Of a stretch of 33,258 nucleotides of DNA, positions 4,121 to 30,463 are shown piece after piece. A program made the translations under genes and the position numbers. The notes beneath the pieces were generated by a model. The model saw only the letters and a list, made by a program, of their open reading frames with translations, searched no databases and was not told the DNA's origin. This DNA is from Thraustochytrium aureum (Eukaryota): positions 62,234 through 95,491 of the forward strand of contig BLSG01000161.1 in assembly GCA_012862495.1 (NCBI GenBank). Direction: 5' to 3'. The number at the start of each line of letters is the position of its first letter. Within the stretch, counting starts at the first letter, position 1.

Positions 4121-5282
4121 CTAAGCCTCAAGCTGCGCGAGCGTCTTGCTAATTTTGCACTGCTCCACAAGCTCGTACGCGCCAGCTTTGCCGATCGAAC
4201 CGGCCCAGTCCGGGTAGTCCGTGTATCCGGCGGGGCCGCGCGAGTAGAACGTCGAGCGGTCGTACTTGTTCAGTGGGTGCCCATGCAGAAGGCGCGCCGG
4301 AAGGTCCGGGTTGGAGATGAACCAGCGCCCGAAGGCAACGGCATCGTATAGCCCATTGTCCAGGGCCTGATGGGCGTTAACCGGAGTGAAGCCGCCGCTG
4401 CCAATCATCGGCCATCGGTACAACTTCCTGAACTTGCGCGGGTGAAAGAAAGGCATCTCCCAGCCCTTGTCCTGGTCACCCCCAAACCACCGCGGCTCCG
4501 TGAGCAAAAGATAGGCGAGGCCAAACCTGTCCAGCCCGGCAATCGCGTGCGCAAAAAGCGCATCCGGGTCCGAGTCGTCACCATCGCTCGGCTCAGCCGG
4601 GTTGCTGGGCGAGAGGCGGAGCGCAACGCGCCCAGCGTCGCCGACCTCGTCGACAACGGCTTCCACACCTCGAAGAGCAGCCTGCAACGGTTCGAGATCG
4701 GCCCGCCGTAGGCGTCGGTGCGCTCGTTGACGCCGTCGCACAGAAACTGGTCCAGAAGGTAGCCATGAGCGCCGTGTATCTCGACGATGTCGCACCCTGC
4801 GCGCATCGCGTTGCGAGCTGCTCGGCGGTAGTCTTGGAGCAGCCGCGGGATCTCTTCGACTGGCAGCGCACGCGGCGTCGCGTGGGGAACGCGTTCTTCC
4901 GATCCGTAGATGCGCGTTGTGCCCTCGATGCGCTTGGCGCTCGACGACACGCTTGGGAGCGGCATCCCAGACTCTTTCAGAAGCGGGTGCTCTCCGAACG
5001 CGGGGTGCGCAACGCGCCCCACGTGCCACAGCTGCATGGACAACAGTGCGCCCTTTGCGTGGACCGCGGCGGCCACTCTCGTCCACGCCTTCACCTGATC
5101 TTCAGTCCAGATCCCGGGCGTCCCAGCGTAACCCATCGCCTCCGGGCTAATGTTGGTCGCCTCGGTGATGAGCAGCCCGCCGGGGGACGCCCGCTGGGCG
5201 TAGTACTCTACCACCATCTCTGACGGCGCCAGCTCTGGCTCCGTCGCCCTGTGCCTTGTCAACGGTGCGAGCACGACGCGGT
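4121..5282 (-). CDS. Old Yellow Enzyme family NADH:flavin oxidoreductase (NemA/OPR-like); N-terminus in gap; apparent 1-bp frameshift at ~4667
   Basis: First frame: RVVLAPLTRHRA, YYAQRASPGGLLITEAT, QLWHVGR, EIHGAHGYLLDQFL (H-x-x-H..Y active site), NERTDAYGG..NRCRLLFEV. Second frame: VALRLSP, DAVAFGRWFISNPDL, YDRSTFY..GYTDYP. Confidence 0.93.
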
Positions 5283-7346: not shown

Positions 7347-9722
7347 TCAATGGCCGTCGTGGTACCCAGCCCAAGATGCGCCAGCGGGAAGCGCGTGCGA
7401 AACGAAAAAGTCCGCAAAGACAAGGCTGATGATGGCCATGAGCTTCATCAGAATGTTGAGCGCAGGCCCAGACGTGTCCTTGAGCGGGTCGCCAACAGTG
7501 TCGCCGATGACGGCCGCCTTGTGCGCCTCCGAGCCCTTGCCGCCGTGCACACCGCTTTCGATAAACTTTTTGGCATTGTCCCAGGCGCCGCCGGTGTTGG
7601 AGGACGAGATAGCCATCTGCACGCCAGAGACGAGGCTGCCAGCGAGGAGGCCGGTCAGCGCATGCACGCCAAAGAAGAAGCCCGTGCCGATGGGCGTCAG
7701 GATGACGAGCGCGCCGGGGGCAATCATCTCGCGCAGGGACGCCTTGGTGGAGATCTCGACGCAGCGCTCGTAGTCCGGCTTTGCGGTGCCTTCCATGAGG
7801 CCCGGGATGCGGGCAAACTGCTCGCGGACCTCGACCACCATCTCGCGCGCTGCAATGCCCACGCTCTTCATGGTCATCGCGCTGAACCAGTACGGAAGCA
7901 TCGACCCGTAGAGGAGGAAGACGATCACGATCGGCTCGAGGATGTTGACCGACTTGGCGCCGATGCGCGACACGAAAGCGCCGTACAGCGCAAGCGACAC
8001 CAGCGCCGCTGACCCGATGGCGAACCCCTTGCCGATGGCGGCGGTTGTGTTGCCGGCCGCGTCGAGCGTGTCGGTGATGTGGCGAACGCTGGCGCCCAGG
8101 TGGGCCATCTCGGCGATCCCGCCAGCGTTGTCGCAAATGGGCCCGTAGGCGTCGATCGTGAGCCCAATAGACAGCGACGAGAGCATGCCGAGCGCAGCGA
8201 GGGCGATCCCGTACATCCCGCAGAGCTTAAAGCTCAGGAAGATGGTGGCGCCGAGCGCGAGCACCGGGACGATGACGGACTTGTAGCCGAGCGCGAGGCC
8301 ATAGATGATGTTGGTAGCGGCGCCAGTCTTGCATGCCTCGGCCACCTCGCGCACGGGGGTGTACGAGTGGCTCGTGTAGTACTCGGTGATGAGGCCCGTT
8401 GTGAGGCCCGCCCAGAGGCCGGCGGAAATGCACATGAAAGCGCCAAACCACGTCGCGTAGGTCTCCGCGGTGCAGGGCTCGCCCGGCATGTTGACGCAGA
8501 ACACGGACGGAAGGAACATGAGCGAGATCAAAAACACAGCTGGCGTGAGGAGCACGGTCGAGAGGATGAGCTGCATTTTGAGCACGTGCTCGACGTCGCT
8601 CTCCTTGCGCACAGGGCTGATGTCGGTGGCCACAAAGCTCGTGCCGAAGCAGACGAGGATGCCCACGGCGCTGATGAGGAGCGGGAACATCATCGAGCTC
8701 CAGTTGGCCTGCAGCTGCGGGGAGCCCGAGCTGAGCACGAGCGCGGCGCAGGTGGCCTCAGCAAAGCTCCCGAACAAATCTGCCCCCATGCCAGCGACGT
8801 CGCCGACGTTGTCGCCGACGTTGTCAGCGATAGTGGCGGGGTTGCGCGGGTCGTCCTCGGGGATGTCCTTCTCGACCTTGCCGACCAGGTCTGCGCCCAC
8901 GTCCGCGGCCTTGGTGTAGATCCCGCCGCCAACGCGGCCGAACAGCGCGATCGTCGACCCGCCCAGCCCATAGCCAGAGACCACCTCAAAAAGTACCTTG
9001 TACGCGTAAATGCTGGCGTCCTCCCCAGTGCTCTCGCTGAGGTCGACGAACGACCAGGACAGCACCGTGATGAGGCCGAACAGCACCGCGAGGGCAAGCG
9101 CGCAGAGCGAAAACCCCATGACGGCGCCGCCGCGAAAGGCAGTGTTGAAGGCCTCGGTCCAGCCGACCTGCGCGTTCGTGGTGCAGCGCGCGTTCGTGTA
9201 CACCGCGATCATCATGCCGAGGTACCCACTCACGATGCTGGTGAGCCCGCCGATGACGAACGAGACCGCCGTGAAGGTGCCCTCGCGCCAGCACGATCCA
9301 GTCGCGCCGAGGTCTGAGGGCGAGGCGTTGATCACGGACTGCCCGCGGCCGCAGTTGGCGGCGCTCCCGACAAGCACCCAGACGATGCCGCCGAAAACGG
9401 CCAAGAAGATCAGGCAGATCCTGTACTCTGCGTACAAGAACGACCGCGCCCCGATCCCGATGGCGTCGTAGATCTCGAGCAGCTTCTCCGTGCGGTCCGC
9501 GCTGCGGCTGTGGCCGACTCCGTCGTCCATCACCAGGCTCGTGCCTTCGTGTCCATTCAGGTCATCGATCTTGATCGCGCGAATCACCACACTGCGAATC
9601 TTGATCGCCTGCGTGAACGCAAACACCACCCCCACAACGCACGCCGCGACGATCAGCACCGAGGCGAGGAAGGTGCCGCCAGTCACCTCGTAGGTGGGCA
9701 TCACCACGTTCGACGCCGCCAT
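7347..9722 (-). CDS. Membrane H+-translocating pyrophosphatase (V-PPase, K+-dependent type I, AVP1-like)
   Basis: GGGIYTKAADVGADLVGKVE, EDDPRNPATIADNVGDNVGD, EYYTS, DAYGPICDNAGGIAEM, GNTTAAIGKGF (Ala, the K+-dependent signature), GGAWDNAKK, GDTVGDPLKDTSGP. Many TM helices. Likely ATG at 9722. Confidence 0.98.
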   Translation of the reverse strand: MAASNVVMPTYEVTGGTFLASVLIVAACVVGVVFAFTQAIKIRSVVIRAIKIDDLNGHEGTSLVMDDGVGHSRSADRTEKLLEIYDAIGIGARSFLYAEYRICLIFLAVFGGIVWVLVGSAANCGRGQSVINASPSDLGATGSCWREGTFTAVSFVIGGLTSIVSGYLGMMIAVYTNARCTTNAQVGWTEAFNTAFRGGAVMGFSLCALALAVLFGLITVLSWSFVDLSESTGEDASIYAYKVLFEVVSGYGLGGSTIALFGRVGGGIYTKAADVGADLVGKVEKDIPEDDPRNPATIADNVGDNVGDVAGMGADLFGSFAEATCAALVLSSGSPQLQANWSSMMFPLLISAVGILVCFGTSFVATDISPVRKESDVEHVLKMQLILSTVLLTPAVFLISLMFLPSVFCVNMPGEPCTAETYATWFGAFMCISAGLWAGLTTGLITEYYTSHSYTPVREVAEACKTGAATNIIYGLALGYKSVIVPVLALGATIFLSFKLCGMYGIALAALGMLSSLSIGLTIDAYGPICDNAGGIAEMAHLGASVRHITDTLDAAGNTTAAIGKGFAIGSAALVSLALYGAFVSRIGAKSVNILEPIVIVFLLYGSMLPYWFSAMTMKSVGIAAREMVVEVREQFARIPGLMEGTAKPDYERCVEISTKASLREMIAPGALVILTPIGTGFFFGVHALTGLLAGSLVSGVQMAISSSNTGGAWDNAKKFIESGVHGGKGSEAHKAAVIGDTVGDPLKDTSGPALNILMKLMAIISLVFADFFVSHALPAGASWAGYHDGH

Positions 9723-9760
9723 CCCTCCCGGCCACAGCCGCCCGCACTCGCCTTCCGCGC

Positions 9761-9803
9761 CCGCCGCTGCTGCCGCTGCCGCCGCCGCCGCTGCTGCTGC
9801 TGC
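9761..9803. repeat. (GCC/GCT)n trinucleotide tract just upstream of the V-PPase start
   Basis: ccgccgctgctgccgctgccgccgccgccgctgctgctgctgct. Confidence 0.8.
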
Positions 9804-10002
9804 TCCTGCGCGATGCGAGGCTGCTCTGCCTGCTTGCTCTGCCGCCCGTCGTCGTTGGTTGGGCTTCTGGAGAGACCGGGAGGAGGGCACGGCAGAGAAG
9901 AGAGCGAGCGCGGCTCAGCCCAACAGAAAAAGATCCGCAACTGCGCCGGTAAAAAAACCACCAGCCGTCGCCGCCGCCCCGCACGCCCGCGACCAAGCCC
10001 TG

Positions 10003-19381: not shown

Positions 19382-21291
19382 TCAAGCGCGGACAGTTTCC
19401 TCGTAGACGACGGCCGTGCCATTGACAACTTTACACGCGACTTCCGTGATCCATTTCTCGACGGCCCAGGATGGAGGCGAGTCCAAGTCGATGTCGAAGA
19501 CGGCCAACCCAACCGTGAAGAAGACGCCCGTGAGGACGAACGTTGAGATGATGTTGAGGATGAACCCCGGCAGCATCATATCGCGAAAGGCAATCTTGCC
19601 CGTCGCAAAAACGACAGCGTTGGGCGGCGTCGCAATGGGAAACATGAAAGCGAGCGAGGCCGCCACAGTAGAAGGCACCAGCAGAATGTATGGATTGATC
19701 CCGTTTTGCACCGCGATCGGGGCGAGGATGGTGATCATGATGTTGCTGGTTGCCGTATTTGAGGTCAGCTCGGTGATCACATGCACAAAAAGCCCGATGA
19801 GAAACACCATGATGATGGGGTTCAGCGAGGTGAGCCCGCCCAGAGCCTCGCCGATCACTTTGGAGAGCCCGGACTTGATAAAGCCGTCCGAGATGGCAAA
19901 GCCTGCGCCAAAGAGTAGAAAGAGGCCCCAAGGCAGCTTGGCGATGTCCTTGTTGTTGAGGAGCCGGGGGCGCTGCACATGGCCGTTTTCGCCTTCGTCT
20001 GGCGGGAGGGAGAATGCCGGGAGAAGGAACAGGAGGCTCGCCATCATGCACGCGATGACCCCGTCATCCACATACTCTCTCCAGGACCCGCCCAGGGCCT
20101 CGCACTCGCTTCTGAGAGTCGACGTGTCGTCCGAGCACGTCCCAACGAAGGGCGAGATCAGGTATGGGCGGGAAAACCAAAGTGCGACCATCGCCACTTC
20201 TACAAGGAGGACCGCGCGCTCATCGCGAGACATTGGTCCTTGCTGCTTGGCTGCAGCGCGGAAAACGTCGGTGTTCATGCGCACCGACTCAGACCGCTTT
20301 CCGAAAGGCACAAACATGACGCACAGCAGCGCCCAGCTGATAACAAGCATCAGGACGGCTGTCGGGAAGCCGAACGAAAACCACTGGCCAAATGTGATCA
20401 CCTGACCGTAGCGGAGTTGGACCTGGGAAACGAGCACCGAGTTGGGCGGTGTCCTTTGCGTAGCGAGCCTCGTCAGCTGGGCCCGAGCCAACTTGCGAAG
20501 CGCCTGTTTCCAACTTACCCGATGATTGTCGCGATGCCACCGCAAGAGGCGCCATACGCGATCCCGATCAAAATGCCCTTGCCAAACTTTCGCCGCGCTT
20601 TCTCACGGTTCTTGTTCGATGCCGACATGCCGGCGCCGTCGCCCTCCTCGAGGCTTGCGTTGCGTTCTTCAATGCCGTCTTTGCCACCGTTGTTGTCGTC
20701 GCTCTCGTCGTGGCTGTCCATGACGCCGTTCGCGAACGGGACCAGCATCGCCGTCGTGGCCGTGTTGCTCGCAAACATTGACACGAACCAGGCAACAGAC
20801 ATGAACGCAAATAGCAAGCGCTGCGGCGACGAGCCTAGGTTGACGAGGAACTTTAGCGCGATGCGTTTGTGCAGGTTGACCTTCTCGAAGGCCATGCCGA
20901 CCAAAAACGAACCAATGAACAGAAAGACGACCCAGTTCATGTAGAGCGCCGCCACGGCGGTCCCGGTGTTGATTTCGGCGAACGGGATCAGGATCAACGG
21001 CAAAAGCGAAGCCACCGGAAGCGGGACCACCTCTGTTATCCACCAAACAGCGGTGATGGTGGTGATGCCGAGCATGGCGTTCGCCAAAGGAAACTCGTCT
21101 CTCAGGGGCGGGCTGGCCCAGAAGGCCACGAGCCCGAGCGGGCCCAGAACAAGACCAGCGAGTTGCATCGTCGAATAGACAGGTGTGGCATCGAGGAGTC
21201 TTTCGGCATCAACGCTGCCGTCTTCTGCGCTCTCGCTGTGCGACCCAGCATGTGGACCCAACGCGCTGACGTTTCCAGCGGCGCGTCCCAT
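19382..21291 (-). CDS. SLC13/DASS Na+-coupled dicarboxylate/sulfate transporter; two exons (21291-20519, 20453-19382)
   Basis: WWITEVVPLPVASLLP, SMFASNTATTAML, IAYGASCGGIATIIG|TPPN (restored by splicing a 65-nt GTAAGT...GCTGAC...AAG intron at 20518-20454), TELTSNTAT, AFMFPIATPPNAVVF. The N-terminus may extend above 21291. Confidence 0.95.
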
Positions 21292-21972
21292 TTTCGCCTT
21301 TGGACTGTAGAGCTCCAGCGTTTCGACGTCGTTGAGCTCTTGCGCTTGGCAATGGGGGTCTGTCTGTCTGCCTGCCTAACGGACTGACTGACTTGTCTGC
21401 CTGGACCACGGGAATGAGACCTCTGAGTCGCTCCATTTGAAGATTGGTACGCAGAACGCGAGCTGCGCTGGGGGCACGAGCTGCTAGTGTCGTGAATCGG
21501 GAGCTGGGCACCTTCTACTTGATGCGGCTCGGCCTCCATCCAAGTCGGACGACGCCACCGCCCTCCATCAGACGTCGCAGACAAAGAAACAAACCATCGA
21601 TAGGCTACAGACCACCTTCCGCAGCAGTCAGTCATCGCGGCCTTGGCCCCGCAAGCAAGAGAGAGTGTGGAGTTGGCTGTGGTCCGAGTACCTTCCGTAG
21701 AACAGTGTCGTCGAACTGTGGAAGGCGTCGACGCCAGCCGTACTCGTACAGCACTTTGTGAGTCAGTGAAGTGGGCTTTGAGCGGAGCACCTCGAACGAT
21801 CCGACGAGACGCATGCGCCCTTGCCATTCTCGTACCGCGCGAAGGGCACTTGACCGCACCTGCAGCCACCAGATTCATGACAGATTCCCATCCTGAAGCG
21901 CTCGCGCCACAAACGCGTCATTGATTCCCCCGCACGCATCATCGATCGTGCACACCACGACAGGGTTTGCAC

Positions 21973-22026: not shown

Positions 22027-22304
22027 GGAGTAAAGTTACCGTTCGGTCGGTTCAGGTCAGGCCCAATGCAGTTCAGAATTCAGATGGACGGGAGGCGTTC
22101 CACTGGCAGGGGCCCGATCAGACCAGATTGACGACTGCGCGCTGGTGGCCGGCTGGCAAGCGGTTTACAGTGTACTCTACACTTTGACGCGGCGCCTGAT
22201 GGACGCGCAGTTCTGAGCGATCTGCGCGAGCCTTCNNNNNNNNNNNNNNNNNNNNNNNNNNNNNNNNNNNNNNNNNNNNNNNNNNNNNNNNNNNNNNNNN
22301 NNNT

Positions 22305-25300
22305 GTCTGTGCAATCTGGCAAGCGGCCTGCGCGGCGCTGGAGCCCGCGCTTGACGGGTCTGGGAACAACCTGGACCATCCTGGGTGGGGCGCCGCTGGC
22401 CAACTCTTGGCCTTCCGAGAAGCAAACGCGAGCTTTGGCGACGGCAAGACTTCAACTGGCGTTGGCCGTCTTCCGTCGGCTCGCGCCGTGAGCACGCGCG
22501 TCTTTCTTGTGGCTCCACCGCGCACAGACTCTGAGACAAACGCACTCATCACCACCTTCGGTCAGCTCGTTGCACACGATGTGTTTGGGTTGGCGGAGGA
22601 CGGGTCGGAGAGTATCGCGATCCCCGTGCCTGCGTGTGATGCCGCTTTTGACACTTTGTGCACAGGGTCGCAGTCTCTCCCATTCTGGCACGCCAGGCGC
22701 GAACTCGGGCCAAGCGGGCAATCAGTGGTGCGGACCACCACGAGCGCGTGGCTTGACGCCTCCTTCGTTTACGGGACGGACCAGGCGAGACTATCAAAGC
22801 TGCGAACGCTCTCCGGCGGGCTGCTAAAGACATCCGCCGGGCCTGGCGGCGAGGAGCTCCTACCCCTTAGCGTCGCAATCGACGTGGGGATGCTTGGGCG
22901 CCACGGCGGCGGCGGCGGCGATCCGGCTCCGCTTTTTGCCGCTGGCGACGAGCGCGCAAACGCCAACCTGCCGATCCTTTCAATCCATACCGTCTTGCAT
23001 CTCGAGCACAACCGAATGGCGCGCAAGCTTCAGGCGATCGAGCCAACGTGGACAGACGATCAACTGTTCGAAGGCGCGCGAAGGTTTGTTATTGCGCTTT
23101 GGCAGCGCACGGTGTATACCGAGTACCTGCCGCGCTTGTTGGGCAAGCCAATCAGGCCATACGAAGGCTATGACTCGAGCGCCGACCCGGCCCTGGACTT
23201 TGCGACAGCTGCAACCGCGCTGCAGTACACTGTGTCTGCAATCTCGCCCAAGGTACTGCTGCTTAAACATGCGCGTGCTACGTTCGAAAGCGGGCACATT
23301 CGACTCGGAGAGTCGCTTCTCAACCCGGCCGAGTTTCATTCGAGCGGCCTTGCAGCGGTCCTCCGTGGCCAGATAGCGCAGCCGGCGAGCGTGGCTGGGC
23401 TTTTCGTCGCAGAGGAGGTCCAGAACTCGGAGATTTGGGGCGACCTTGTTGCAACTACCATCCAACGGGGTCGCGACCTCGGTGTCCCGAGTTTGAACAA
23501 CGTCCGCGAGCTCGTCGGCCTAGCTCGGTACTCGTCGTGGACCGAGCTCTCGACAGACCCTGCCTCCCGAGCTCGGCTCGCCGCTGCCTATGCGAGCCTA
23601 GACGATGTGGACGCCATTGTTGGTGGCCTTGCCGAACCCAAGGACCCGGGGGCGCTCGTCGGGCCGACGTTTGCTCGACTGATAGAGCTCCAATTCGAGC
23701 ATCTGAGACGCGCAGACCGCTTTCACTTCGAGCGGCTTGGCGCCCATCCGGGCTTTGTCTCCGCCGAGCTGGCGCGCCGGACGCTGGCGGACGTGCTGCG
23801 GGACCACGTTGGGGAGGGCTTTGAGATCGGTGACGACGCTCTCAGTGTTCAGCCTGCCAGAGCGCTAGCTAGAGGAGGAATGGCTCTCGCCAGCAAGCCT
23901 GCTCAAGCGCGGGCGCTTGCGGCAAACAACCTTGGTAGGAATACCGAGTGGCGGATCGTGGAGCCGTTCGAGGGCATGGAGGTGCGCTGGCATGTTAACG
24001 CAACCAGCGGCACGATCGAAATCGTGCTGAAAGGAAGGCTTTCGGATACTGGGTGGGTCGCCATTGGGTTTGGAACGACGCAAATGTACGGTTCCGACAT
24101 CGTGCTCGGTGTCCTCCACCCGGAATACAAGACGCCCATGGCGATTGACATGTTCATCCCGCCTGGCAAACTTGGTGTGCCAGACATCGAACTAGGTGGC
24201 ACCGACGACGTGCAGCCAGGTTCAGTGTCGGGCGGCTACTCGAATGGGTGGCTAGAGATTCGTTTTTCGCGCGCTCTCGTGGCCGGACTGGAAGACTACC
24301 CGCTGGACCCTACGCCTGGGATCAAAACAAACCTCATCTTCGCAATGGGAAGCGAGGCCGGAATAACCCATGGGCGGGCTTGGCGCGCGAGCCACCCGCT
24401 TGTGCTTCTTCTCGGCGAAGAGGACCCTCAGTGCACGCTACGGCCCGACGGTCGTTCCACCTCTGATTTCGTCGTGCACGCTGCCATCATGTCCCTGATG
24501 TGGATGTGCTTCATGCCTTTGTCTGTGTACTATGTCCATTTCCGGCGGTCAAGGCCTGGCGTCCTTGAGCTCCATCAGGCGCTCGCCCAGGCGGGTAGTC
24601 TCGGCGTGGTTGCGCTGGCCGCCTCGGCCCTTGCCGTAAACAAGCATGTCCTGACCGATCCGCACGTGCTCGTAGGTCTGCTCGTCGTGCTTGTTCTCGT
24701 GTGCCAGATTATTCTAGGCCGGCTCCTTCGCGCTGCGCTTCAGAAGGGCACAGATGTGGCGTCCGTGTTGCGCTTCAAAAAGGCCCACGGAGCAATTGGA
24801 TGGACGCTGCTCTGCGTCGCCCTCTTCAACTGCGGTTTGGGTGTGGACAGGATGTTCGCTGCGTCCAACACCACAGTGCGCCAGGCGTACATGGCCTACG
24901 TTGCCGGCCTCGTGTGCGTTTTCCTTTTCAAAGAGGCGCGCCGAAACGGGTCAAAGCTAACAATGAAGGGGTCGAGCCTCAAATACAAGCCAAGCGGGCT
25001 GTCCGCGGTGGTGCCCTACGGGCGGCAACGGGTAGACTCGAGCTCCTTGGTGGGCCCCAAGAACGCCGACTTGGTCAGCTGGTCGTGGCAGGAGTTCCGC
25101 AACCGCCTCATGTCCGGGCAGCAGTTAATAGTGATAGGCTCCAAGGCGTACAACATTGGCAACTTTGCGAACGGGCACCCAGCTGGCGCTCGGATCATTC
25201 AGGACTACGTCGGCTGCGACGCAACTGCCGCGTTTCTTGGGCGAGACATGACCAGTATTCTGCGCCGACCCCATAGCGCTGAAGCGGTCCAAATTCTGAC

Positions 25301-26479
25301 TGCGTTTCAGGCAGCTGCAATTCAGGACAGCAGCAGCAGCGACGAAGCGAGCCGCGAGTCGCTGCTCGACCACTTTGTTCGCGTCGAGGTGGTCGCAAAG
25401 ACTGTCATTAATGGTGGCCGCGCTGTCGTCATTGAAGTGCAACTGCCAGAAAGGGCAGAGCCGATCCTCGCAGACACAGCATGCGACAAGGCGGCGGCCA
25501 CTACGCCAGGCCGCAAGTCGGCTCTAGCGTCGGCCGCGGAAAAAGATNNNNNNNNNNNNNNNNNNNNNNNNNNNNNNNNNNNNNNNNNNNNNNNNNNNNN
25601 NNNNNNNNNNNNNNNNNNNNNNNNNNNNNNNNNNNNNNNNNNNNNNNNNNNNNNNNNNNNNNNNNNAGAATTACCAACGGGGGAGTCAAGGTCCTGGAGT
25701 CGCTCGGCGCTGGTGCCAGAGGTGCGCGGCAAGCACAGGCGTCGAATTCGAAGTGCGCGCCAAGCTCGCTCGGGCAGCATTTTGCGTTCCTGATGGTGCT
25801 AGGCGGTCAAGTTGTCGTGCGGCACTACACGCCGCTCGACACCTCGGTGGAGAGCGGGCGCGTCAGGTTTGGCGTCAAGGTGTACGAAAAGGGGCAAGTC
25901 TCTCGCGCGCTGGCAGACCTGTCTCCGGGCCAATACTTGCGCGTGCACGGGCCACTTGGGAGCGGTACTGCGTGCAAGAACGAGCTTCTCCCGCACGGGT
26001 GCTGGTCGCGGCTGGTGTTCCTTGCTGGGGGGAGCGGCGTCTTCCCAGCGATCTGCGCGGTGCGGCACCACCTGCGACACGCTAAAGGGAGCGTTGCGCT
26101 TTGGGTGATCGTCTCAAACAGGACCTCGGACGACTTTTTCTTTGTGGAGGAGCTCGAGCAGCTGGTTGTCAGCGCTGAAGGGTCGCTAAAGGTCGTCTAC
26201 ACCGCCACACGGCAAGCCGTGGGTTCGGGGCTGGCGGCACCAGCGCGGAGTTACGGCGCCAGCCAAGCCGCCAAGCGAAAAGAAGAACCCATCCGCGACT
26301 TGCGAGAAGGACACATCTCGGCCGAGCTGCTGATTGCGGCTGGAGTGCCAAAGCCAGAGGACTTTCCAGTCAAAGACTCGCTCCTCGTTGCGGCTGGCCC
26401 AACAGGCTTTTGCAGGGCTATGTCTACGATGCTTCAGTCTGTTGGGTACGACGAAGACCAAATTATTCAAATGTCGTGA
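22305..26479 (+). CDS. Multidomain membrane oxidoreductase: heme-peroxidase-like domain + DOMON + cytochrome b561 + cytochrome b5 + FAD/NAD(P)H reductase
   Basis: Open from 22305: signal-peptide-like end VCAIWQAACAA, then DGSGNNLDHPGWG, FGQLVAHD, WLDASFVYG, GDERAN, EHNR, IQRGRDLG, GGLAE, DRFHFE (peroxidase). GWVAIGF..MYGSD..FSRAL..TH (DOMON). Four TM His (b561). HPAG..DAT..HS (b5). After the gap: GQH, RHYTP, VKVYEKGQVS, GPLG, AGGSGVFP, SNRT, AGP (reductase). The start codon probably lies in gap 22236-22303. Confidence 0.88.
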
Positions 26480-26509
26480 CGTTGGCGAGCCCCGTGAAGC
26501 CGCAGACCC

Positions 26510-26587
26510 TGTGCCATCCATCTGTAGATTGACCAATTACAACGAGTGTGCCATCCATCTGTGGATTGACCAATTACAACGAGTGTG
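26510..26587. repeat. 37-bp direct tandem duplication followed by a short TATG/AATG tract
   Basis: tgtgccatccatctgt(a/g)gattgaccaattacaacgag at 26510 and 26547, followed by tatgaatgtatgtatgaatg at ~26595-26614. Confidence 0.93.
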
Positions 26588-26682
26588 TTGTTGTTATGAA
26601 TGTATGTATGAATGTTGTCTGAGAGTAGCTTGCTCGTACTTTGCCAAGTGATTCGCATACCCAGCGCAAACACCAAGGCCTG

Positions 26683-29455: not shown

Positions 29456-30292
29456 CTAGAGAGTGGCGCCAGAGGCGGTGAGCGCGTCGATGATGCCCCG
29501 AATGCGCTTCTTGTCCAGAAGCTTGTAGCCCTCCGCCTGGGTCACGGTAGCAACCTCGACGTTCGAGTCGTCCACCTTCTCCTCCATAACCTGCTTGAGC
29601 ACTTTGAGCGCGAGCGTAAGGCCCTCCTCGAGCGTCAGGTTCTCGTTGTACTCCTCCTGCAGAGCATTCGAGGCGCCTTCGCTGCCCGATCCGATTGCGC
29701 GCGCATCCCACTTGGAAAACGAGCCGGTTGGGTCCGTGTTGTACAGCTGCGGCCCGTTCTCGTCCACGCCAGCCAGGAGAAGCGCCACGCCAAAGGGCCG
29801 CGAAGGCACGTCGTCGCCCTTGCCAAACCCGATGGCCACGTCAGAGATGCTCTGCGCGATGGAAGCCACCCGCATTGGCTCGTTAAAGGTAAACACATGG
29901 TTTTGGGCCTCGACGCGCGCCTTGTCGATCAGGGTGCGCGCGTCGGCGACGAGGCCGCTCATGGCGGCGCCGAGGTGGTGGTCCACCTCCATAATCTTCT
30001 CCACGCTGTCGGCCTCGACGAGCGGCGAGGTGAGTCGTTTCTCGACGGCCAGGATCACGCCTTCCTTCGTGCGCACGCCGATCGCTGTCGACCCGAGCTT
30101 GATCGCCTGCGCCCCGAGCAAAACGCCGTCGTCAGCGCCACCGGCCAGCCCCAACGCACCCAGCGGCAACCCCCTCCCCAAGCACGACCTCCGCGCAGGA
30201 CTTACCTCCAGCGCATACTCGACCTGAAACAGCCGACCCTCCGGCGAGAAGGTGTTGACCCCCCGATCATACTCGGACCGCGTCGCAAACAT
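29456..30292 (-). CDS. PSMA5: 20S proteasome subunit alpha type-5, with a 99-nt intron (30107-30205)
   Basis: [76 protein letters not shown]. Intron reads GTAAGT...GCTGAC...GCGCAG. Confidence 0.98.
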
Positions 30293-30463
30293 CTCTCCGT
30301 CAAGCGCGCCTCAGGTGTCCGTCTCGCCGCGCCAACCGCCTCGCTCGCTCGCAGGAGGCCCTCTGCTCGCCGCTCTGCGCCGCCGCTCTGAATCCGCTGC
30401 CGAAGCCGAACGCCGCCGCTCCAACGTCGCCCAGGCCGTCCTCCACGCGCGCGCCGGCGATCA

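What the first reader, a model, noticed from the sequence alone, without database searches (positions are those of the whole stretch)
22305..26479. Single-chain peroxidase-DOMON-cyt b561-cyt b5-flavoreductase: a DUOX analogue built without a NOX core
Seen: five redox modules in order. These are peroxidase-like (~22341-23850), DOMON (~23976-24400), five hydrophobic helices with b561 His pattern (~24470-24935), cyt b5 (~25075-25320) and FAD/NAD-binding reductase (~25370-26479). Cofactor ligands are intact along the wire: DOMON Met 24084 and His 24369; b561 His 24477, 24573, 24663, 24786; b5 His 25176 and 25272; RxYTP at 25820. Known: DOMON-b561 (CYBDOM/FRRS1-type) proteins move electrons across membranes, usually from ascorbate. 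Soluble b5-b5 reductase fusions carry electrons from NAD(P)H. DUOX joins an extracellular peroxidase-homology domain to a NOX core. Inference: a signal peptide plus five TM helices would put peroxidase and DOMON outside, and b5 and reductase in the cytosol. That gives a self-sufficient chain NAD(P)H > FAD > b5 > two b561 hemes > DOMON heme > external acceptor (Fe3+, quinones, O2/ROS or matrix cross-linking). I know of no functional characterisation of this architecture, but cannot exclude uncharacterised homologues in other protists or early-diverging fungi.
Basis: partly seen in the sequence, partly recalled or inferred. Interest (0 to 1): 0.9.

Follow-up and report, generated by a model that had tools for sequence, protein, structure and literature searches.

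The report
Self-powered membrane haem wire, disabled cap
This single-celled eukaryote's gene strings a flavin reductase, four haem-type modules' worth of binding sites and a peroxidase-shaped cap into what is very likely one membrane protein, predicted to carry electrons from NADPH out of the cell to reduce metals such as iron; dozens of relatives exist across fungi, algae and protists, I found no study of any of them, and in this copy the cap lacks the histidine that peroxidases use to hold haem.

Summary
Observation confirmed. All modules and all eight named ligands are present. One public contig bridges the 119-N gap with 7 letters and puts the two halves in frame.

The gene is not unique. 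43 of the 150 best relatives carry the full peroxidase-DOMON-b561-b5-FAD-NAD(P) chain and 30 carry the wire without that head. Named hosts include chytrids, Glomeromycota, a brown alga, a green alga and Rigifila. This scan noted the same design three times before, in fungal DNA.

- This copy's head lacks the proximal haem His (kept in 38 of 45 relatives), like human DUOX1.
- The wire's haem ligands are nearly invariant.
- The NADH-selecting Asp is missing across the family, so NADPH is the likely donor.
- Heads are interchangeable: two relatives carry a class I peroxidase and one a ceruloplasmin-like oxidase.

Best reading: an NADPH-driven trans-membrane reductase, most likely of Fe3+/Cu2+. 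It is a CYBDOM with its own power supply, convergent on FRE/NOX. It is not a DUOX, and ROS output is untested. Eight literature searches found no description.

The parts
22236..22303 (+). Assembly gap inferred to hold the start codon and most of the signal peptide (or an exon boundary)
   Evidence: Not bridged. The 30 loose-end letters shown from run X1 hold no ATG and include a stop in this frame if the gap length is right, so the start would lie in the last ~13 codons of the gap. Inference.
22305..22340 (+). Tail of a probable signal peptide (hydrophobic, small residues)
   Evidence: Sequence. 17 of 29 relatives with a complete head start have a signal-like N-terminus by a crude hydrophobicity rule. 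No SignalP run.
22344..23813 (+). Peroxidase-cyclooxygenase-fold head, likely haem-less (pseudo-peroxidase)
   Evidence: Pfam E 6.5e-108; fold Z 48.5 to cyanobacterial peroxidase 8s6c and 47.0 to DdPoxA. Distal Q87, H91 and R217 kept; ester Asp and Glu sites are Ala.
23223..23234 (+). Degenerate proximal haem site: Q307 and V310 stand where relatives have Arg and His (RYGH)
   Evidence: An X1 contig covers 22991-23243 with 0 other letters.
23961..24410 (+). DOMON haem domain, ligands M594 (24084) and H689 (24369)
   Evidence: Pfam 3.2e-12; fold Z 14.9 to DBH DOMON and 13-14 to CDH/PDH cytochrome domains. Met in 90 of 91 and His in 87 of 91 relatives.
24450..24968 (+). Five-helix cytochrome b561 (CYBDOM type), H725, H757, H787, H828
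   Evidence: His spacing 32/30/41 against 34/33/36 in HYP1 (PMC10784544). Conservation.
25077..25313 (+). Cytochrome b5 domain, H958 and H990
   Evidence: Pfam 3.8e-08; fold Z about 11 to b5. H958 in 110 of 110 and H990 in 103 of 110 relatives.
25371..25442 (+). First two beta-strands of the FAD domain, on the b5 side of the gap
   Evidence: Weak family-profile match (5.8 bits, profile positions 24-73) that complements the post-gap match (70-136). Strands predicted. In relative P0017 the equivalent strands open the reductase fold.
25548..25666 (.). Scaffold gap of 119 N, probably only a few bases in reality
   Evidence: One X1 contig joins 25543 to 25667 with 7 letters, phase 0.
25751..25972 (+). 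Core of the FAD-binding domain (b5-reductase/FNR type), RHYTP at 25820
   Evidence: (best solved relative: NADH-cytochrome b5 reductase 2eix, E 7.7e-17).
26009..26479 (+). NAD(P)H-binding domain and stop codon; Thr at 26207 sits at the site of rat b5R Asp239

Best explanation
This is very likely one membrane protein of about 1,365 residues, predicted to pass electrons from cytosolic NADPH through FAD, a cytochrome b5 haem, two b561 haems and a DOMON haem to acceptors outside the cell, most likely Fe3+ or Cu2+ chelates, while its peroxidase-fold cap, which lacks the proximal histidine, likely serves as a haem-less scaffold. Shown: domain order, ligands, five helices, in-frame join in one contig, family conservation, loss of the proximal His. 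Inferred: topology (signal peptide plus five helices puts cap and DOMON outside, b5 and reductase inside), cofactor binding, direction of flow, NADPH preference, plasma-membrane location and the acceptor. In effect the fused b5/b5-reductase replaces ascorbate as the donor of a CYBDOM ferric reductase, which reaches the FRE/NOX design with unrelated membrane parts.
For: Modules and ligands. Single chain: bridging contig; 43 of 150 relatives with the whole chain by family HMMs; independently, 24 of 30 long relatives carry An_peroxidase, Cyt-b5 and FAD_binding_6 together and 11 of 30 carry all six Pfam families; a transcript-derived Rigifila protein has it whole. Selection on the wire: H787 110/110, H828 109/110, H757 100/110, H725 98/110, b5 H958 110/110, DOMON Met 90/91; 22 of 35 listed variant sites are synonymous against 26% expected, with no stops. 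The cap is optional: 30 of 150 lack it, 13 of them with a signal-like start directly before DOMON. Ferric reduction is the measured activity of the DOMON-b561 core in HYP1 and CRR (PMC10784544, PMC10784552, passages). One relative, P0069, fuses the wire to a ceruloplasmin-like oxidase (E 5e-131), the reductase-plus-ferroxidase pairing of iron uptake. NADPH: Thr at the Asp239 site; D239T switches rat b5R towards NADPH (table row in PMC5817062); Asp in only 1 of 78 relatives, Ser or Thr in 40. Haem-less cap: human DUOX1 lacks the haem His, shows no haem density, and its heads pack together (PMC7794343, passages).
Against: No activity, location or expression data. The acceptor is borrowed from CYBDOMs. 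Metal uptake does not explain why most relatives keep a haem-competent cap (proximal His in 38 of 45; full distal His, Arg and proximal His in 14 of 29), nor why an unrelated peroxidase was recruited to the same position. The join rests on one low-depth contig that disagrees with the window's contig end by one base, and that run may not be independent of the window's sample. The b561 Pfam score is below cut-off, and Z 14 is modest for a helical bundle. The relatives were found with the DOMON-b5 stretch and my HMMs were built from them, so conservation there is partly by selection. pTM is only 0.59 and 0.50, so domain contacts and haem distances are not established. P0069 is a single unnamed gene model. 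The reductase has Ala at the Cys of the usual CGP motif.
Confidence: 0.55

Rival explanations
1. DUOX-like ROS generator: the same outward wire ends by reducing O2 at the solvent-exposed DOMON haem to superoxide/H2O2 (or drives Fenton chemistry through Fe2+). In relatives with an intact cap the peroxide is used for cross-linking, halogenation or killing prey. The window's copy would resemble vertebrate DUOX, with a dead cap.
For: Same layout as DUOX, with the same loss of the haem His. Peroxidases of two unrelated superfamilies sit on this wire. NADPH-type fingerprint. [quoted passage not shown] The DOMON fold matches the CDH cytochrome domains, whose link to Fenton chemistry is recalled.
Against: No NOX core. 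Characterised DOMON-b561 proteins reduce metal chelates. Met/His and bis-His haems have no free site for O2 (established knowledge). Half of the fully covered caps lack a distal catalytic residue (14 of 29).
Confidence: 0.22
2. NAD(P)H-fuelled surface peroxide sink: the DOMON haem is the electron donor of the cap, as cytochrome c is for cytochrome c peroxidase, so the chain turns external H2O2 into water. The window's copy would be a derived form that kept only the wire.
For: P0054 carries a class I (CcP/APX-like) head with distal RLMFH and proximal GAHT motifs intact. P0087 carries another class I head, and a common origin of the two is weakly rejected (p-AU 0.033). 14 of 29 animal-type caps keep the full triad.
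Against: For this copy the proximal His and the Arg before it are gone, and the head shows relaxed constraint (4 of 9 variant sites synonymous against 10 of 11 in DOMON-b5, Fisher p 0.05). P0087's head lacks the distal His and the proximal segment. Headless members exist. More likely for other family members than for this gene.
Confidence: 0.15
3. Two neighbouring genes, or a frameshifted and decaying gene, which look fused only because of the gap.
For: With the gap taken at 119 N the halves are out of frame. The window's contig end has one more A than the bridging contig. The cap has lost its His.
Against: The bridging contig is in frame; the FAD domain is split across the gap; 43 relatives are single chains; the b5-to-FAD distance of about 108 residues is within the family range (median 81, 75th percentile 105, n 82); synonymous excess on both sides (15 of 21 and 7 of 14).
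Confidence: 0.04

Closest known systems
CYBDOM proteins (Arabidopsis HYP1/CRR; animal FRRS1/SDR2)
   Same: DOMON with Met/His ligands, then a five-helix b561 with four His at similar spacing; a three-haem conduit to the outside.
   Different: CYBDOMs take electrons from cytosolic ascorbate. Here a b5 and an FAD/NAD(P)H reductase are fused on the cytosolic side and a peroxidase fold is added outside.
Dual oxidases (DUOX1/2, BLI-3)
   Same: Extracellular peroxidase-homology domain (here also without the haem His), a two-haem membrane domain and a cytosolic FNR-type dehydrogenase in one chain.
   Different: The membrane core is b561, not the six-helix ferric-reductase domain; no EF-hands; extra DOMON and b5 haems; H2O2 output not shown.
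Ferric reductases of the FRD superfamily, including the DOMON-bearing eFRE clade of Naegleria and oomycetes (PMC3591440, passages)
   Same: NADPH to FAD to two membrane haems to an extracellular DOMON.
   Different: Those use the FRD core and FAD_binding_8/NAD_binding_6 domains; this family uses b561, b5 and a b5-reductase-type domain, so the likeness is convergent.
Cytochrome b5 reductase, NCB5OR and the diaphorase part of nitrate reductase
   Same: b5 haem domain followed by FAD_binding_6 and NAD_binding_1.
   Different: Those are soluble or singly anchored; here the unit feeds a membrane b561 and lacks the NADH-selecting Asp.
DdPoxA and cyanobacterial short peroxidases (6erc, 8s6c)
   Same: Closest solved relatives of the cap (E 5e-52 and 2e-70; Z 47-48).
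   Different: They keep the proximal His; this cap has Val there.

Membership tests
DUOX | N-terminal peroxidase-homology domain | tested here: met
DUOX | Six-helix NOX/FRD core with paired His on helices 3 and 5 | tested here: not met
   Five helices with one His on each of four; no Ferric_reduct hit at E up to 1; NOX5 TM Z 11.5 below b561 Z 14.1-14.2. Definition from PMC7794343.
DUOX | EF-hand regulatory region | tested here: not met
   No EF-hand family at E up to 1 in either half; the bridged gap is too short to hold one.
DUOX | NADPH-dependent H2O2 production | not testable with these tools
   Needs an assay.
CYBDOM | DOMON domain with haem Met/His pair | tested here: met
CYBDOM | Five-helix b561 with four conserved His | tested here: met
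CYBDOM | Pfam Cytochrom_B561 above its curated cut-off | tested here: inconclusive
   12.4 bits against 23 for the window; several relatives pass, e.g. P0038 31.1 and P0072 31.7.
CYBDOM | Only DOMON plus b561, with ascorbate as the cytosolic donor | tested here: not met
   Fused b5 and flavin reductase follow the last helix. Ascorbate use itself was not testable.
Active peroxidase-cyclooxygenase enzyme | Distal Gln, His and Arg | tested here: met
   Q87, H91, R217.
Active peroxidase-cyclooxygenase enzyme | Proximal haem His | tested here: not met
   Val310, with Gln307 for the conserved Arg; same letters in an X1 contig.
Active peroxidase-cyclooxygenase enzyme | Asp/Glu for haem ester links (subfamily feature; role recalled) | tested here: not met
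   Ala at both sites.
NADH-cytochrome b5 reductase family | RxY(T/S) FAD motif and GxGxxP nucleotide motif | tested here: met
   RHYTP and GSGVFP.
NADH-cytochrome b5 reductase family | NADH-selecting Asp (rat D239) | tested here: not met
   Thr in the window (residue 213 of 1i7p equated with 239 by recalled numbering); Asp in 1 of 78 relatives.
Uncharacterised peroxidase-DOMON-b561-b5-FAD-NAD(P) family (ESM Atlas cluster of 179) | All six domains in this order in one chain | tested here: met
   (score 0.93, 224 of 256 features); the join rests on one contig.

The most novel reading that the evidence does not exclude
Eukaryotes invented the NOX/FRE machine a second time from unrelated membrane parts: a widespread family of self-contained NADPH-driven five-haem wires (b5 reductase, b5, b561, DOMON) with plug-in extracellular heads. 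The heads seen are an animal-type peroxidase (active, distal-dead or haem-less), a class I peroxidase gained twice, a ceruloplasmin-like oxidase, or none. In head-bearing members the wire powers the head's chemistry directly, making them true functional DUOX analogues or NADPH-fuelled surface peroxidases in chytrids, mycorrhizal fungi, algae and flagellates.
Probability: 0.3. Interest if true: 0.85.

Novelty: new variant of a known kind. Interest (0 to 1): 0.66.

Why it matters
Trans-membrane electron export powered directly by NADPH is, in established knowledge, the work of the NOX/FRE superfamily, while b561 proteins depend on ascorbate. This family would be a second, convergent solution, present in at least four eukaryotic supergroups and filed in databases as 'heme peroxidase' or 'hypothetical protein'. 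It offers candidates for surface ferric reductase or ROS activity in early-diverging fungi (including arbuscular mycorrhizal fungi), algae and flagellates. Natural variants with active, dead, swapped or absent heads also make an old DUOX question testable: what a peroxidase domain does on top of an electron wire.

Tried and rejected
No whole genome is held, so copy number and paralogues are unknown.

The word-indexed protein searches missed the family: 1 hit, 12 hits showing only peroxidase-type matches, 2 hits. Only the full HMMER search found it.

The metagenome scan returned 3 loci with a peroxidase only, none with the wire. The alignment-based scan was not possible.

No RNA holder was listed, which says nothing about expression. 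Runs X2 and X3 show the same contigs and appear to be one data set, so no second bridge of the gap was found. No contig covers 22304-22461 except a foreign-looking 41-base piece, so the start stays unseen.

The careful tree did not finish; only quick trees are used. They group the window with two unnamed ENA proteins, so the host lineage stays open. They cannot date the family or tell vertical descent from transfer.

A frameshift as the cause of the missing proximal His was rejected: the flanking residues align in frame. An intron in the long FAD-domain loop was considered; there is no evidence either way and the length is within the family range.

No complex prediction was run. SignalP, DeepTMHMM, InterPro and RedOxiBase were not available. 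Asard 2013 is not held; Aravind 2001 and Iyer 2007 were seen only as citations and may mention such fusions.
Full report
Observation. The + strand from 22305 reads open for 1,081 codons up to the second N gap, and a second open frame of 270 codons runs from 25667 to the stop at 26477-26479. Pfam finds An_peroxidase (E 6.5e-108), DOMON (3.2e-12), Cyt-b5 (3.8e-08) and a sub-threshold Cytochrom_B561 (E 0.19) in the first part, and FAD_binding_6 (2.2e-13) and NAD_binding_1 (2e-07) in the second. AlphaFold2 with 39 aligned rows gives five long helices between DOMON and b5. A search of 48,161 solved chains assigns each part: peroxidase fold Z 48.5; DOMON/CDH cytochrome Z 13-15; Dcytb and plant b561 Z 14.2 and 14.1, against 11.5 for the NOX5 membrane domain; b5 Z about 11. 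Z 14 is modest for a helical bundle, but the His spacing (32/30/41) matches HYP1 (34/33/36; PMC10784544, passages).

One gene or two. Taken at 119 N, the gap leaves the halves out of frame. One contig of public run X1 (depth 3.6, 89 letters on the shorter side) joins 25543 to 25667 with 7 letters between, which is phase 0. The window's contig end has one more A in a run of A than that contig, so the join rests on the contig; X1 may also not be independent of the window's sample. No second bridge was found, since X2 and X3 show the same contigs. Three other lines agree with a single chain. The first two FAD-domain strands lie before the gap (weak profile match, 5.8 bits, complementary to the post-gap match; the equivalent strands open the reductase fold in relative P0017). 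Relatives are single chains. And 22 of 35 listed variant sites in the coding region are synonymous, against 26% expected from all possible changes (p 4e-6, no stops; transition bias not modelled; 5 non-coding rows dropped and 1 row not shown by the tool). The 5' gap was not bridged, so the start codon is unseen. Estimated length is about 1,365 residues.

Host. The neighbours include an H+-pyrophosphatase, a proteasome alpha subunit, a sodium:sulfate symporter, a flavin oxidoreductase and weak matches to ciliary families, with sparse GT-AG introns. This reads as an intron-poor, probably flagellated protist; that fungi and animals lack H+-PPase is recalled. The lineage was not resolved.

Family. 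The ESM Atlas places the protein in a 179-member cluster (An_peroxidase 100%, Cyt-b5 97%, DOMON 88%). A full HMMER search with the DOMON-b5 stretch gave 583 hits, of which the best 150 were returned. With profiles built from these hits, 43 of 150 have peroxidase-DOMON-b561-b5-FAD-NAD in order and 30 of 150 have the same without that head. Independent Pfam scans agree: of 30 long hits, 24 carry An_peroxidase, Cyt-b5 and FAD_binding_6 together and 11 carry all six families. I looked up 30 of the 150; 15 carry an organism name. They are Rigifila (CRuMs, a transcript assembly), Discosporangium (brown alga), Cymbomonas (green alga), a bicosoecid, Acaulospora, Sorochytrium, Hyaloraphidium and six chytrid genera plus Geranomyces paralogues (lineages checked for five, the rest recalled). 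Annotations are 'heme peroxidase' or 'hypothetical protein'. In quick trees the window groups with two unnamed ENA proteins, P0016 and P0017 (SH-aLRT 99-100).

What is conserved. Among 110 relatives with b561 and b5, H787 is kept in 110, H828 in 109, H757 in 100 (8 Lys), H725 in 98 (10 gaps), b5 H958 in 110 and H990 in 103. DOMON Met is kept in 90 of 91 and His in 87 of 91. These hits were selected with that stretch, so part of this is ascertainment. The head is far more variable (48 head-bearing relatives, counted where covered): proximal His 38 of 45, distal His 17 of 31, distal Arg 26 of 40; all three in 14 of 29; proximal His without the full distal pair in another 14 of 29. The window's copy keeps the distal Gln, His and Arg but has Gln307 and Val310 where relatives have Arg (44 of 45) and His. 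An X1 contig covers this site with no difference. Mouse DUOX1 also lacks His at this place, and human DUOX1 shows no haem there and uses the domain for packing (PMC7794343, passages). Variant sites hint at relaxed constraint on the head (4 of 9 synonymous, against 10 of 11 in DOMON-b5; Fisher p 0.05). In the reductase, Thr stands at the site of rat b5R Asp239, whose change to Thr shifts the enzyme to NADPH (table row, PMC5817062). Only 1 of 78 relatives has Asp there and 40 have Ser or Thr. This corrects the 'NADH-type' label of two earlier scan notes.

Swappable heads. 13 of the 30 headless wires begin with a signal-like stretch just before DOMON, so they look complete (crude rule); they include named chytrid proteins. 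P0054 and P0087 carry a class I (CcP/APX-like) peroxidase, an unrelated superfamily, in the head position. P0054's catalytic motifs are intact and it fills a 4.3-kb contig as one frame; P0087's are broken. A common origin of the two is weakly rejected (p-AU 0.033; quick tree, no mixture model, 30 of 72 rows chosen by me, P0054 on a long branch). P0069 places a ceruloplasmin-like oxidase (E 5e-131) before the wire; it is one unnamed gene model.

Mechanism. A signal peptide and five helices put head and DOMON outside and b5 and reductase inside (inferred). The likely path is NADPH, FAD, b5 haem, inner and outer b561 haems, DOMON haem, then an external one-electron acceptor; I put about 0.9 on this wire. 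The acceptor is less sure. Fe3+/Cu2+ chelates are favoured (0.55) because that is the measured activity of HYP1 and CRR (PMC10784544, PMC10784552, passages), because the head is dispensable or dead in many members including this one, and because one member is fused to a ferroxidase. O2 (0.22) and the head's own peroxide cycle (0.15 for this copy, higher for intact relatives) stay open, since unrelated peroxidases were recruited to the same position. Low pTM (0.59 and 0.50) means domain contacts are not established.

Known and novel. It is not a DUOX member (no FRD core, no EF-hands) and not a plain CYBDOM (fused donor), but it works like a CYBDOM with a built-in FRE/NOX-style power supply. Eight searches of the held library found no paper describing this architecture; I saw the listings only, and 20 of 40 and 25 of 353 rows. 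Passages of PMC3591440 describe DOMON on FRD-type reductases, PMC9524095 a sponge NOX with an added b561, and PMC10784552 notes in one sentence that DOMON is often fused to FAD/NAD-binding oxidoreductases, citing Aravind 2001, which I could not see. Subscription journals, supplements and InterPro were not searched. This scan noted the design three times before in fungal DNA; no note on the head swaps came up. Verdict: real, a new variant of a known kind at family scale, function untested; interest 0.66.

Noticed in passing
P0069, residues about 437-1565: DOMON-b561, then a ceruloplasmin-like multicopper oxidase, then the full DOMON-b561-b5-FAD-NAD wire in one 2,338-residue chain: a possible ferric reductase plus ferroxidase in one protein. 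Single unnamed gene model.
   Followed up: partly
P0054 residues about 39-330; P0087 residues about 52-235: Class I (CcP/APX-like) peroxidase heads on the same wire, possibly gained twice.
   Followed up: partly
P0042, P0052, P0063, P0075, P0082, P0118, P0122, P0125, P0139, P0159, P0163: A mostly headless chytrid-containing subfamily has an SH3 domain inserted in the NAD(P)-binding domain, suggesting regulated or scaffolded activity as in NOX systems.
   Followed up: no
b561 column of H757: 8 of 62 headless relatives show Lys instead of this haem His; a real ligand change or an alignment shift.
   Followed up: no
window 25764 and 22904: Run X1 has a 9-base in-frame insertion just before the FAD-domain GQH motif and a 3-base in-frame deletion in the Gly run of the head, relative to the window: alleles or assembly differences.
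   Followed up: partly
window 4124-5280 (-): The NADH:flavin oxidoreductase (Old Yellow Enzyme type) gene changes frame near 4660 without an obvious intron: frameshift or assembly error.
   Followed up: no
window 7350-9914 (-), 19385-21375 (-), 29459-30310 (-): H+-pyrophosphatase, sodium:sulfate symporter (with a short GT-AG intron near 20518) and proteasome alpha subunit genes; ordinary neighbours with no evident link to the redox gene.
   Followed up: partly
window 26505-26590: A direct repeat of about 40 bases in two copies just behind the stop codon (seen).
   Followed up: no
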